From: Carcharhinus amblyrhynchos
Lineage: Eukaryota
Assembly: GCA_965287045.1 (NCBI GenBank)
Contig: OZ336882.1
Span: 43,772,001-43,836,000, forward strand
DNA: 64,000 nt
Direction of reading: 5' to 3'
The position numbers are program-made. How positions within the stretch are numbered: position 1 is the first letter of the stretch; each line of letters begins with the position of its first letter. This document shows positions 42,001 through 45,000 of this stretch, piece after piece.

Positions 42001-45000
42001 CAAGAAGTTATGGGGATAGGGCCTGGGTGGGATTGTTGTCGGTGCAGGCTCGATGGGCTAAATGGTCTCCTTCTGCACTGTAAGATTCTATGATTCTATA
42101 AAATTAAACGGTTTCAATGGTAGGTATTTTAACTTCTGCTTGTGAATTGTCTCAGATATCAGTATCGACTTCCATTTTGATTTGGTTACCATCAAGTTTT
42201 CAGAATACTGAAAATGTTGTGAACTACCATGAACCAATAAATCTCCTAATGTCAACTCTTGGACTTGTTTTGGTGCGTTGTCTTCCATCACGTCTTCATT
42301 TTTGCCTGACACCTGGTAGAATTTTCTGGTAGACGTCAATGTGTTCTTTTTCTTATGTGTTTTTGATGTAGAGGATGTTTGTCATGTCCATGTTGGGCGG
42401 CACAGTGGTGCAGTGGTTAGCACTGCTGCCTCATAGTACCAGGACCTGAGTTAGATTCTGGCTTTAGGTGGCTGTGTGGAGTTTGGACATTCTCCCTGTA
42501 TCTGCCTGGGTTTCATCAGCGTGCTCCGGTTTCCTCCCACATTCCAAAGATGTGCTGGTTAGGTTGATTGTCTATGCTAAATTGCCCCTTAGTGTAAGGG
42601 GGACTAGCAGGGTAAATATGTGGGGTTACAGCGGGCAATAGATCCTGTATGTATTGTTGTTGGTGCAGGTTTGATGGGCCAAATGGCCTCCTTCTGCACT
42701 GTAGGGACTCTATGATTCCAGTATGCTTTGGCAATAAAGCCTTTTTTGTCACAATTCTTCCATTTGTTTTCCCTATTCCAGCATTCCCCCACTGAGTGCT
42801 CAACTTGTCCACAGCGGTGACATGCTTGTTGTTTTGCAAACTTATTTTTAGTAGTCTTTGTATTGTGGATCTTTGTCCCAGTTCCTATCTGTGAAGCCTG
42901 TTTTGCAGCCAATCCACTGACGTTACAATGTTCACTGCTGATTTCAGGGTCAGTGTTCTTTCTGTAAGCAACTTTCTCTGAATAGCTTCATTCCAGAATC
43001 CACATACCAACCTATCATAAACAGTATCATCAAGCATTGCATCAAATTCACAATATTTAGCTAGCATTTGTAAGATGGCCACAAACTGTGAAATGCTTTC
43101 ATTTTCCACCTGGCTTTGGCAGTGGAACTTTTTGGCAGAAATGCTTCTTTAAGACCTTTGTCAGTTCATCATTGGTTTTAACTCCTGGCTTTGTTGGATG
43201 GACTAAACTTCGTAGCAATGTTAAAGTTTAGTGTCCTTCTAAACTGAGAAATATCACCCTGTAGCTTATTTGCTTGAAGATAATATTGGAATCTTTCTTC
43301 ATATGAGTTCCAAGTCCTACAATCCTCATCATGCTGCTGTGAGTCACTGTTTCCTCAGCCTGTTTTGATTTGCCACTTGCAATTTAGAAATCTACCCATT
43401 TTATTGAACGGTAAGTAAGCTTAACCTTTGTTTCTTGCTTGCTCACAGTTTATTTACTTTTCTAAATTTTTTGGTGGTGCATCAGAGGTTTCTTTTCCAT
43501 GCCTTTGATCAACCTTTCAATCTGAAGTGCTGGGTTTTATTTTCTTTAAATCAGGTTGAAAAAGAAAGTTTCTCTGACTCTCGTTGCCAATTTCTTCTTT
43601 GGTACATATCGCCTGGTAGCTACCACAAAGCCAAAAGTAATGAAGTGCCACACTAATTGATTGGAGTCAAACACAATGCAGGTTTATTAAGAAGGTGTAG
43701 CTTAATCCATGTCTAAGATGGAAGAGCCATAAAAGCCTGCAAATCCCTCAGTTTACGACACTACAGGTCATGAGATGTTATACCAGAAGAGATGCAACCA
43801 TTTTAAATACATAACAGTAGCCAAAGGTTTTCACGTTGGGAAATGGGGAGGGAAAAGCTGAGGAGCTCAGCTTTAAAGTACAAGTGATCATGTTTTCTGT
43901 TTTTATTTTGAGTGTAAAGTACAATTGATAATAGTGTTTAGCTAACTGTGTTTGCTTTGGTTTACTCTTGTATAGTAAAACCATTTGTTTAAACTGTGGA
44001 ATCCTGTGGCTTTATTCTTTCAGTTGGTAACAAGGATTTTGAATTTCTCTTTCAACATTAACAGTTTCTCTGAGGATCGTAGGAATCACAAATGACATAA
44101 GTTAGTATATTTGAGGCAACTGTGTGTCAAATTAACCACTACGATTCCTGCCTGTCTGTGATAAATCACCGGAATTTAAGCCAGAACTTTGCTGAAAAGA
44201 TACAATCAAGAAAGGGAAATCACCATGTGGAAGAACGTTGATGCGAAATAGCATTATACCACAGCATGAGCATCCAAAGTGGGTTGATATGCTGTGTCAA
44301 CTTATCCAGAAACTCCAAGTAAACATTTTGATGCTTAAAATTTCATTCAGTTAGAGGTGGAATGTAAATTGTCTCATTTGTGCTGGAATGGTACATCTTA
44401 CTTTGTGCCTGTTTAGACTTTTCACATTTTGGCTCTAAAAATGTTACCCTACAGGTTACTGTAAGTGAGAGCTAATAATAATGTGGTGAGAGTAATGGGG
44501 CCTTTGAGGCCTGGCTGAACAATGGGACCAAATATCTATTACCTTCTCTTTCAGCTTTTTCCATGTTACGTGGGATCACGGTATGGAGATGCCGGCATTG
44601 GACTGGGGTAAACACGGTAAGAAGTCTCACAACACCAGGTTAAAGTCCAACAGGTTTATTTGGTAGCAAAAGCCACTAGCTTTTGGAGCGCTGCTCCTTC
44701 GTCAGGTTAGGTGATGAAGGAGCAGCGCTCCGAAAGCTCGTGGCTTTTGCTACCAAATAAATCTGTTGGACTTAAACCTGGTGTTGTGAGGCTTCTTAAT
44801 ATGGGATCACCACAGTGCTGGTTGATCACATCTTCATATCAACCATAATTTTTAGGATTTGGCTGGTGGTCTTAGCGATTAATGCTCTTCCAACTGCAAA
44901 CTGCCCTACACCCCCTCCCCTACTTATCTGGACTGGAGACTGGCACTGCTGCAAGTCCTGAAATGGGTTTCTTTCAGCTCAGAGGTGGGAGAGCAATGAG

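What the first reader, a model, noticed from the sequence alone, without database searches (positions are those of the whole stretch)
44580..44801. Second independent copy of the hammerhead palindrome with the same asymmetric architecture
Seen: a different TSD (TGGGATCAC) and different stem-I-adjacent sequence (gtggcttttgctacc versus gtgattcc in the 7285 copy). The layout is the same: a longer left arm with an extra tggagatgccggcattggactgggg segment, a fold-back point just 5' of the CUGAUGA core, and a shorter right arm. Within each copy the two arms share the copy-specific variant. Inference: both arms were templated from one RNA during integration, and the fold-back point is tied to the ribozyme. 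The AGCU stem III is self-complementary, which would suit dimeric cleavage.
Basis: partly seen in the sequence, partly recalled or inferred. Interest (0 to 1): 0.72.

Follow-up and report, generated by a model that had tools for sequence, protein, structure and literature searches.

The report
Head-to-head Penelope retrotransposon stub
This is a dead, very short insertion of a Penelope-like retrotransposon in a shark-like genome, made of two inverted copies of the element's last 90 to 130 bases, a layout already described for this class of elements.

Summary
Bases 44580-44801 are a 222-bp insert flanked by an exact 9-bp target duplication. Two inverted arms (87 nt, 93% complementary) meet just 5' of a hammerhead CUGAUGA box, and only the left arm carries a 38-nt outer extension. 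The copy at 7285-7487 has the same layout.

Each arm is the 3'-terminal module of an endonuclease-bearing Penelope-like element (PLE). A third, linear copy at window 1-1166 joins the same module to decayed RT/GIY-YIG coding sequence that matches shark proteins.

Inverted 5'-truncated copies, a 30-40 bp "tail" at one end only and short duplications are published PLE hallmarks. A PLE protein that cuts and extends both DNA strands from two start sites has been shown in vitro.

- The "copy-specific" variant is a subfamily marker.
- Substitutions do not group arms by locus.
- The junction is about 35 nt upstream of the ribozyme cleavage site.
- Both hammerheads of this copy are defective.

The recurrence of the junction at the hammerhead's 5' edge is real, but it rests on two loci plus one weak lead.

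The parts
44571..44579 (.). Left copy of the 9-bp target-site duplication (TGGGATCAC)
   Evidence: Exact direct repeat with 44802-44810 (family D6)
44580..44617 (-). 38-nt 'tail': the outer extension found on the long arm only. In element sense it lies beyond the proximal 3' end.
   Evidence: It is outside the inverted repeat and aligns with the 38-nt extension of copy 1. Five of five tail-bearing copies end within one codon of each other. It matches the 30-40 bp PLE tail described in PMC8557442, PMC3846280 and PMC11167929.
44618..44711 (-). Long arm, antisense on the plus strand: the 3'-terminal module of the PLE from about 7 nt upstream of the UGAUGA letters to the proximal 3' end
   Evidence: Inverted repeat I1; alignment in element sense; 87% identical to the module of linear copy 3
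44673..44709 (-). Defective minimal hammerhead of the long arm. The CUGACGA box is at 44705-44699, helix II at 44697-44685, A in place of G12 at 44684, AGCU at 44681-44678. Helix I has only 2 bp.
   Evidence: Read. It fails my descriptor even with 2 deviations allowed. Helix II is predicted by folding.
44712..44801 (+). Short arm, sense on the plus strand. It starts at the UGAUGA letters and ends at the proximal 3' end, with no tail.
   Evidence: Inverted repeat I1; alignment. Its 3' end falls in the same roughly 20-nt cluster as the ends of linear copies (copy 3, P0005, P0006).
44711..44743 (+). Defective minimal hammerhead of the short arm. G sits at the C3 position (44711). The extra A is at 44718, helix II at 44719-44731, GAAA at 44732-44735, AGCU at 44735-44738, C17 at 44739. 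There is no helix I 5' strand.
   Evidence: Read. It fails the descriptor. Helix II is predicted.
44802..44810 (.). Right copy of the 9-bp target-site duplication
   Evidence: family D6
7274..7498 (.). Copy 1, same layout. The 11-bp duplication is at 7274-7284 and 7488-7498. The tail is 7285-7322, the long arm 7323-7412 (minus sense) and the short arm 7413-7487 (plus sense). The long arm holds the best-kept hammerhead, 7408-7372.
   Evidence: The hammerhead is the only hit in the window at one deviation or fewer, while 4 of 60 shuffles gave any hit. Helices I and II appear in the MFE fold. Paralogous empty site.
1..1166 (+). Copy 3: a linear 3' part of a PLE, cut by the window start. Decayed RT-linker/GIY-YIG coding sequence runs to about 924, followed by about 150 nt of untranslated sequence. 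The same terminal module lies at 1074-1166, with 9 nt of the hammerhead core missing. It ends 8 nt into the tail.
   Evidence: tblastn of shark proteins P0011, P0012 and P0016 covers 1-924 in three frames. Those proteins carry RVT_1 and then GIY-YIG. The module is 86-87% identical to the copy 2 arms. Its upstream sequence is shared with P0004 and P0005.

Best explanation
The feature is a dead-on-arrival insertion made by the reverse transcriptase/endonuclease of a Penelope-like element (PLE). It consists of two copies of the element's 3'-terminal module, about 90 and about 130 nt long. They are joined head to head with their 3' ends facing outward, inside one 9-bp target duplication.

Most likely route (inferred, not shown):
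1. The GIY-YIG endonuclease nicked both target strands 9 bp apart.
2. Each 3'-OH primed reverse transcription on PLE RNA. One primed at the distal start site, so that arm carries the 38-nt tail. The other primed at the proximal start site, so that arm has no tail.
3. Both cDNAs passed through the uncleaved hammerhead and stopped within about 10 nt of its 5' edge.
4. The two ends were joined directly, by template jump or end joining.

The hammerhead is a passenger, part of the module that every copy carries. In this copy both ribozymes are defective, and the locus would fold as a plain long hairpin if transcribed.
For: Shown here:
- Exact 9-bp and 11-bp duplications flank the whole palindromes. 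Copy 1 has a paralogous empty site.
- The arm sequence is the 3' end of an element whose upstream part encodes RT-linker/GIY-YIG remnants. These match shark proteins at E 1e-29 to 1e-37. Those proteins have the domain order RVT_1 then GIY-YIG.
- The 3' ends face outward in both palindromes.
- The ten 3' ends examined fall into two classes. Five are distal, all within one codon of each other: c1L, c2L, P0003, P0004, P0008. Five are proximal, within about 20 nt: c1R, c2R, copy 3, P0005, P0006.
- The short arms end where linear copies end. That fits a separate initiation event.
- Minimal-hammerhead features are present in the family.

From papers:
- An inverted 5'-truncated copy and a 30-40 bp tail at one end only are typical of PLEs (PMC8557442, passages).
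- An inverted pLTR, a 31-bp tail on one inverted pLTR and 8-10 bp duplications are described in PMC3846280 (passages).
- A purified PLE protein cleaves and extends both strands. Reverse transcription starts at two internal sites, and the tail is the stretch between them. Hammerhead cleavage is not needed for insertion (PMC11167929, main text read).
Against: - No tool here shows the integration mechanism. Two-strand priming is known in vitro for a lizard PLE, not for this family.
- Rfam finds no hammerhead, either at gathering score in the whole window or at E up to 10 in the two loci.
- My strict descriptor finds none in the window. Only one of the five arms passes with one deviation.
- The Pfam scores for RVT_1 (27.1 against a cut-off of 29.6) and GIY-YIG (20.2-21.7 against 22.6) in the shark proteins are below the curated cut-offs. 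The window's own 119-aa ORF gives no GIY-YIG hit.
- Why both cDNAs stop at the hammerhead's 5' edge is unexplained.
- Assigning the central 4-7 nt to the long arm rests on 4 of 6 matching letters in copy 2 and fewer in copy 1 (and reading).
Confidence: 0.7

Rival explanations
1. Snap-back (copy-back) synthesis. A single target-primed cDNA reached the hammerhead's 5' edge, turned round on itself and copied the nascent cDNA. Both arms would then come from one RNA molecule.
For: - The central spacer is tiny: 4 nt in copy 1 and 7 nt in copy 2.
- Both arms of each palindrome belong to the same subfamily.
- Self-priming has been proposed for PLE inverted junctions (PMC3846280, discussion passage).
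Against: - Copy-back should reproduce the tail, or stop at arbitrary points. Instead, both short arms end in the proximal cluster used by three linear copies.
- I saw no pre-existing palindrome at the cDNA end that could seed a fold-back (reading).
- The arms differ by 8% and 12%. Their identity at the time of insertion can no longer be tested.
Confidence: 0.2
2. The palindrome is itself the mobile unit: a hairpin-shaped non-autonomous element, or a MITE or foldback DNA transposon, copied as a whole.
For: Two loci share the same layout. Generic hairpin miRNA models score on it, for example mir-548 at 52 bits.
Against: - The two outer ends are not inverted repeats of each other, because the tail is on one side only.
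- The duplication length differs, 9 bp against 11 bp.
- The indel block is shared by the arms within a locus and differs between loci. Both forms also exist as linear copies.
- The module is the 3' end of a coding PLE.
- All miRNA hits are far below their gathering scores, for example 52 against 90 bits.
Confidence: 0.05
3. The agreement of the two junctions is chance. Both are ordinary random 5' truncations that happen to fall near the hammerhead.
For: There are only two loci in the window. The arms within a locus share one junction, so there are two independent events, not four.
Against: - A BLAST of the whole insert against the window found only three loci, and 2 of the 3 have this junction.
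- One of five ORF-borne copies from elsewhere (P0006) also loses homology at the C3 position.
- My rough arithmetic gives the chance that a second junction lands within 9 nt of the first. It is about 0.02 if truncation is uniform over the 1.1 kb of the element seen here, and about 0.15 if confined to the last 130 nt.
Confidence: 0.3

Closest known systems
Inverted pLTR / inverted 5'-truncated copy structure of endonuclease-bearing Penelope-like elements (PMC3846280; PMC8557442, Fig. 2 legend and text)
   Same: Head-to-head inverted copies with 3' ends outward. One short target duplication (8-11 bp) surrounds the whole unit. A 30-40 bp tail sits at one end only. A hammerhead motif lies in the repeated terminal part.
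   Different: No ORF-bearing copy lies between or beside the arms. Both arms are cut down to 90-130 nt. The junction sits immediately 5' of the hammerhead core rather than at the 5' end of a longer pLTR.
Minimal type I hammerheads of metazoan PLEs (PMC4209133)
   Same: CUGAUGA and GAAA boxes, an extra nucleotide before helix II, a G10.1-C11.1 closing pair, a 4-bp helix I and almost no helix III, with a self-complementary AGCU that suggests dimers. That paper also notes pairs of motifs on opposite strands 100-700 bp apart in Schistosoma.
   Different: Here the two cores are only 5-12 nt apart. Both ribozymes of this copy carry changes at conserved positions. Helix II is 5 bp, against the 6-8 bp quoted there.
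In vitro insertion by the Anolis PLE protein PAc (PMC11167929)
   Same: There are two reverse-transcription start sites, and the tail is the stretch between them. The hammerhead lies about 60-100 nt upstream of those sites. Both DNA strands are cut and extended, and uncleaved RNA is used as template.
   Different: That work used a different vertebrate and element, and it did not report inverted products. Whether the shark element behaves the same way is untested.
L1 twin-priming inversions (Ostertag and Kazazian 2001; recalled, not read here)
   Same: The second nicked strand is used as an additional primer, which gives an inverted 5' part within a single target duplication.
   Different: In L1 the two segments are adjacent, non-overlapping parts of one RNA. 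Here both arms copy the same 3'-terminal stretch.
Animal non-LTR retrozymes (bioRxiv 10.64898/2026.07.22.740005; abstract and passages read)
   Same: Short non-coding hammerhead-bearing derivatives of PLE terminal sequence.
   Different: Retrozymes are direct tandem repeats that can yield circular RNA. This is an inverted pair and cannot.

Membership tests
Endonuclease-bearing Penelope-like element (insertion product) | The family encodes a reverse transcriptase followed by a C-terminal GIY-YIG endonuclease | tested here: met
   Linear copy 3 joins the same 3' module to coding remnants at window 1-924, which match shark proteins. P0011 shows RVT_1 at residues 18-139 and GIY-YIG at 374-407. P0009 and P0012 also hit GIY-YIG, with E values of 2.5e-4 to 7.6e-4. 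Caveat: all these Pfam scores are just under the curated cut-offs, and the window's own ORF gives no GIY-YIG hit.
Endonuclease-bearing Penelope-like element (insertion product) | Short target-site duplication around the whole insertion | tested here: met
   9 bp and 11 bp. Copy 1 has a paralogous empty site.
Endonuclease-bearing Penelope-like element (insertion product) | Inverted 5'-truncated copy joined head to head | tested here: met
   The arms are 87 nt at 93% and 78 nt at 88% complementary, with 3' ends outward.
Endonuclease-bearing Penelope-like element (insertion product) | Optional 30-40 bp tail at one end only | tested here: met
   A 38-nt extension is on the left arm only in both palindromes. 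The same end point is seen in P0003, P0004 and P0008.
Endonuclease-bearing Penelope-like element (insertion product) | Direct pseudo-LTRs from a partial tandem copy | not testable with these tools
   There is no tandem copy in the window. Copy 3 is cut by the window start, and no genome of the host was available.
Minimal type I hammerhead ribozyme of PLEs | Conserved CUGANGA and GAAA boxes with C3, G8 and G12 | tested here: not met
   In this copy the left arm has A at G12 and the right arm has G at C3. The boxes are intact only in the long arm of copy 1. The family majority has them.
Minimal type I hammerhead ribozyme of PLEs | Helix II closed by G10.1-C11.1 with one extra nucleotide before it | tested here: met
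   Present in both arms of this copy and in the long arm of copy 1 (3 of the 4 palindrome arms); decayed in the short arm of copy 1; copy 3 lacks part of it.
Minimal type I hammerhead ribozyme of PLEs | Helix I of 4-5 bp flanking the cleavage site | tested here: not met
   It is 2 bp in the left arm and absent in the right arm of this copy. It is 4 bp in the long arm of copy 1.
Minimal type I hammerhead ribozyme of PLEs | Self-complementary helix III letters | tested here: met
   AGCU is present in both arms of this copy and in the short arm of copy 1. Copy 3 has AAUU, which is also self-complementary. The long arm of copy 1 has AGAU, which is not.
Minimal type I hammerhead ribozyme of PLEs | Match to a curated hammerhead covariance model | tested here: not met
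   No Rfam hammerhead family matched at gathering score or at E up to 10. Those models expect a real helix III.
Minimal type I hammerhead ribozyme of PLEs | Self-cleavage | not testable with these tools
   This needs transcription and cleavage assays of monomer and dimer constructs.
L1-type twin-priming inversion | Inverted and direct segments are adjacent, non-overlapping parts of the template | tested here: not met
   Both arms cover the same stretch of the element.
TIR DNA transposon / MITE | Inverted repeats reach both termini, and the duplication length is fixed | tested here: not met
   The left terminus is the unpaired 38-nt tail. The duplications are 9 and 11 bp.
Non-LTR retrozyme | Direct tandem repeats, each with a hammerhead | tested here: not met
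   The only direct repeats found at either locus are the target duplications and short, probably chance, matches. The window holds three loci, none of them tandem.
miRNA precursor families (mir-548 and others) | Rfam gathering score | tested here: not met
   The best hit is mir-548 at 52 bits against a threshold of 90. The alignments show only generic hairpin pairing.

The most novel reading that the evidence does not exclude
PLE reverse transcription in this shark lineage may have a preferred end point at the 5' border of the hammerhead. Of the 8 copies I could examine, 3 end within about 10 nt of it, including both palindromes.

Minimal palindromes would then arise as follows. A dimeric RNP primes on both nicked strands, one protomer at each of the two start sites of a single RNA. 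That explains why each palindrome has exactly one tail. Both cDNAs then run to that end point.

The end point would be one of two things:
- The transcription start of the element's own promoter. In copy 3 a TATA-like stretch at 1044-1048 lies 29-33 nt upstream of the positions where the arms end.
- A stop imposed by the folded ribozyme or by protein bound to it.

Either way these stubs would be in vivo footprints of two-strand target-primed reverse transcription. They would also give the hammerhead a role in defining the template's 5' end rather than in cleavage.
Probability: 0.2. Interest if true: 0.6.

Novelty: new member of a known kind. Interest (0 to 1): 0.3.

Why it matters
As it stands, this is an ordinary relic of a Penelope-like element. 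Its head-to-head layout, its tail on one side and its minimal dimer-type hammerhead have all been described before. Its main practical use is for annotation. Such stubs look like miRNA hairpins or MITEs and should be masked as PLE fragments.

The open point is small but testable: whether inverted junctions and 5' ends pile up at the hammerhead's 5' edge. PLE integration is poorly understood, and how its tandem and inverted structures form is called undefined in the literature (PMC8557442). A genome-wide peak there, together with a strict one-tail rule, would be natural evidence for two-strand priming by a dimeric RNP. It would also point to a role for the ribozyme region in setting the template's 5' end.

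Tried and rejected
- **Rfam.** The whole window at gathering score gave no match. Both loci at E up to 10 gave only sub-threshold hairpin-type hits and no hammerhead.
- **Own minimal-hammerhead descriptor.** The strict version found nothing in the window and nothing in 200 shuffles. With one deviation allowed it found one arm only.
- **tRNA-like SINE reading of the antisense strand.** ARAGORN finds nothing at the loci. The outward-facing ends fit 3' ends of cDNAs, so I dropped this reading.
- **The module as the N-terminus of the PLE ORF.** This is the arrangement in the Anolis and rotifer elements. The frame is open in the short arm (P0001) and in four ORFs from elsewhere. However, the ATG is ACG in five copies, and the 7-nt indel shifts the frame in the other subfamily. 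No full-length PLE protein with this N-terminus turned up. Left open.
- **Protein searches with the read-through peptide.** These gave 2 hits (longer proteins), 0 hits (similar length) and 5 hits, one of them an unrelated repeat protein, P0007. That is too few for a census.
- **Is P0006 a palindrome?** Its 12 upstream residues against the translated antisense arms scored 21, and 132 of 2000 shuffles did as well. This is not significant and is kept only as a lead.
- **The C/T difference at alignment column 52.** It separates long from short arms in both loci. About 0.85 such shared sites are expected by chance (my arithmetic), so I rejected it as a signal.
- **The RT ORF at 5557-6369.** It is LINE-type, not PLE.
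- **Paper not held.** PMC522041 (Pyatkov 2004) could not be read.
- **Not done.** I made no search of any eukaryotic genome, because no such collection is offered. I did not open the supplements of PMC4209133, and bioRxiv supplements are closed.
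Full report
**Observation**

The region is as described.
- TGGGATCAC stands at 44571-44579 and again at 44802-44810.
- The 222 bases between them hold two inverted arms, 44618-44704 and 44712-44798. They are 87 nt long, 93% complementary and 7 nt apart.
- The left arm alone continues outward for 38 nt (44580-44617).
- The copy near 7285 repeats the plan. It has an 11-bp duplication (7274-7284 and 7488-7498), arms of 78 nt at 88% complementarity, and a 38-nt extension on the left arm only.
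- Copy 1 interrupts the tail of a LINE. A 75%-identical paralogue at 29885-29965 (minus strand) has the target stretch once, so it serves as a paralogous empty site.
- As RNA the insert would be one long hairpin of -164 kcal/mol, z = -25.6.

**What the arms are**

A BLAST of the insert against the window finds only three loci: the two palindromes and a single, non-inverted copy at 1080-1166 that is 86-87% identical to the arms.

Upstream of that third copy, window 1-924 carries frameshifted coding sequence on the same strand. With its 119-aa ORF (443-802) as query, ten proteins of 210-2000 residues matched at E of 0.001 or better. Eight of them are named shark proteins, from Mustelus asterias and Scyliorhinus torazame.

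tblastn of three of these proteins covers 1-924 in three frames and hits nowhere else in the window. Of the five hit proteins scanned against Pfam, P0011 has RVT_1 followed by GIY-YIG, and P0009 and P0012 hit GIY-YIG alone. All these scores are just below Pfam's curated cut-offs, and the window's own ORF gives no GIY-YIG hit. Reverse transcriptase followed by a C-terminal GIY-YIG endonuclease is the defining architecture of endonuclease-bearing Penelope-like elements (PLEs).

The arms are therefore the last 90-130 nt of a PLE. The window is shark-like and not human.

**The hammerhead**

In element sense the arms align from a CUGAUGA box onward:
- one extra A;
- a 5-bp helix II closed by G-C;
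- GAAA;
- a self-complementary AGCU with almost no helix III;
- a cleavage-site C;
- a 4-bp helix I.

These are the traits listed for the minimal type I hammerheads of metazoan PLEs, which are thought to act as dimers (PMC4209133, parts 1-2 of 4 read).

The support is at the level of the family, not of this copy.
- Rfam reports no hammerhead at gathering score or at E up to 10.
- My strict descriptor finds none in the window and none in 200 shuffles.
- With one deviation allowed, only the long arm of copy 1 (7408-7372) passes, while 4 of 60 shuffles gave any hit.
- In the copy under review the left arm has A at the G12 position and 2 bp of helix I. The right arm has G at the C3 position and no helix I 5' strand.
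- A transcript of the palindrome would hold one sense and one antisense ribozyme locked in the long hairpin. The dimer idea applies to the source element, not to this locus.

**The asymmetry is the known PLE tail**

Papers describe PLE insertions as follows:
- 5'-truncated, often with an inverted 5'-truncated copy joined head to head, and with a 30-40 bp tail at one end only (PMC8557442, passages);
- in rotifers, an inverted pLTR, a 31-bp tail on one inverted pLTR and 8-10 bp duplications (PMC3846280, passages).

For an Anolis PLE (PMC11167929, main text read), the purified protein cuts and extends both target strands. Reverse transcription starts at two internal sites, and the tail is the stretch between them. 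Hammerhead mutants insert normally.

The present data fit this. I could place ten 3' ends. Five are distal and lie within one codon of each other: both long arms, P0003, P0004 and P0008. Five are proximal within about 20 nt: both short arms, copy 3, P0005 and P0006. The five P-numbered copies are ORF translations found with a read-through peptide of the long arm. P0005 and P0006 continue into LINE-type RT sequence.

**Most likely mechanism (inferred)**

1. Staggered nicks were made on both strands.
2. One 3'-OH primed at the distal site and the other at the proximal site.
3. Both cDNAs were extended through an uncleaved hammerhead.
4. The two cDNA ends were joined directly.

The short arms end where linear copies end. 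This favours a second initiation event over copy-back synthesis of a single cDNA. Copy-back cannot be excluded, however, and has been proposed for PLE inverted junctions (PMC3846280).

*One RNA.* This is not shown.
- The 7-nt indel block shared by the arms of a locus is a subfamily marker. The long form is in copy 3 and P0003-P0006, and the short form is in P0008.
- Leaving the indel aside, the arms are no closer within loci (87.8% and 92.0%) than between them (c1L-c2L 91.9%, c1L-c2R 90.5%).
- At 8-12% divergence, the identity of the arms at insertion is no longer recoverable.

*Junction tied to the ribozyme.*
- The long arms reach about 9 and 7 nt upstream of the UGAUGA letters, and the short arms about 5 and 0 nt. 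The central 4-7 nt are assigned with little certainty.
- This point is about 35 nt upstream of the cleavage site, so cleavage did not set it.
- Five of the eight copies run on upstream of the hammerhead: copy 3, P0003, P0004, P0005 and probably P0008. Three end at its 5' edge: the two palindromes and P0006.
- Whether P0006 is itself a palindrome is unclear (132 of 2000 shuffles score as well).
- By my rough arithmetic, a second junction within 9 nt of the first has a chance of 0.02 to 0.15. The figure depends on the length over which truncation is spread.
- The pattern is suggestive and nothing more.

**Novelty**

The five searches, and the passages I read, turned up no paper that places PLE inversion junctions relative to the hammerhead. 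PMC4209133 does mention paired motifs on opposite strands 100-700 bp apart. I did not see that paper's supplements. bioRxiv supplements are closed, and PMC522041 is not held.

**What stayed unchecked**

**Verdict**

This is a real, correctly described feature and an ordinary member of a known kind of insertion. One small open question remains: why the junction falls at the hammerhead's 5' edge.

Noticed in passing
window 1-924 (+): Decayed coding sequence of a Penelope-like element (RT-linker and GIY-YIG region, several frameshifts). It matches proteins annotated as uncharacterized in Mustelus asterias and Scyliorhinus torazame. One hit is annotated as a septin 5a isoform, which suggests that a repeat was swept into a gene model.
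   Followed up: yes
window 5557-6369 (-): A 270-aa open frame with an RVT_1 domain (E 5e-28). Its nearest solved relatives are R2 and LINE-1 proteins, so it is a LINE and not the PLE.
   Followed up: partly
window 6985-7284 and 7488-7653; paralogues at 29768-30210 (-), 34845-35057 (-), 52293-52685 (-), 4984-5233 (-): Copy 1 sits inside the 3' end of a LINE-like repeat that has several other copies in the window. Two ORF-borne copies from elsewhere (P0005, P0006) are also embedded in LINE RT sequence.
   Followed up: partly
window 1206-1297, with partial copies at 24723-24814, 42007-42091, 12053-12143, 60463-60496, 42682-42713, 2591-2627, 54853-54890: An unrelated short interspersed repeat lies directly 3' of copy 3 and has at least seven further partial copies.
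   Followed up: no
window 23294-23369 (-): ARAGORN calls a tRNA-Phe with anticodon AAA. This is an unusual anticodon, so it may be a tRNA-derived repeat or a pseudogene.
   Followed up: no
window 1096-1103 (copy 3): Where the other copies have AGCU at helix III, copy 3 has AAUU. It is also self-complementary, a double change that keeps the palindrome, although this copy lacks 9 nt of the core.
   Followed up: partly
window 44732-44748 (+) and 44667-44684 (-): In the long-variant subfamily, the 7 extra nucleotides allow a 7-bp hairpin. It pairs the GAAA box and cleavage site with the following U-rich stretch, and it is predicted in both arms. It would compete with the hammerhead fold.
   Followed up: no
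window 1044-1048 and 1073-1077 (copy 3): A TATA-like stretch lies 29-33 nt upstream of the positions where the palindrome arms end. A TATA box plus an initiator-like TCACT was noted in a rotifer pLTR (PMC3846280). The stretch does not seem to be kept in P0005, so this is only a lead.
   Followed up: partly
window 44714-44800 (+); also copy 3 and P0003-P0006: One reading frame stays open through the whole module, starting at the AUG inside CUGAUGA. In the Anolis and rotifer PLEs the ORF starts in this part of the pLTR. Here the AUG is ACG in five copies and the other subfamily is frameshifted, so coding is not established.
   Followed up: partly
alignment column 52 (window 44768 / 44648 and 7459 / 7362): Both long arms have C and both short arms have T at the same site. 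About 0.85 shared differing sites are expected by chance, and both states occur among linear copies.
   Followed up: yes
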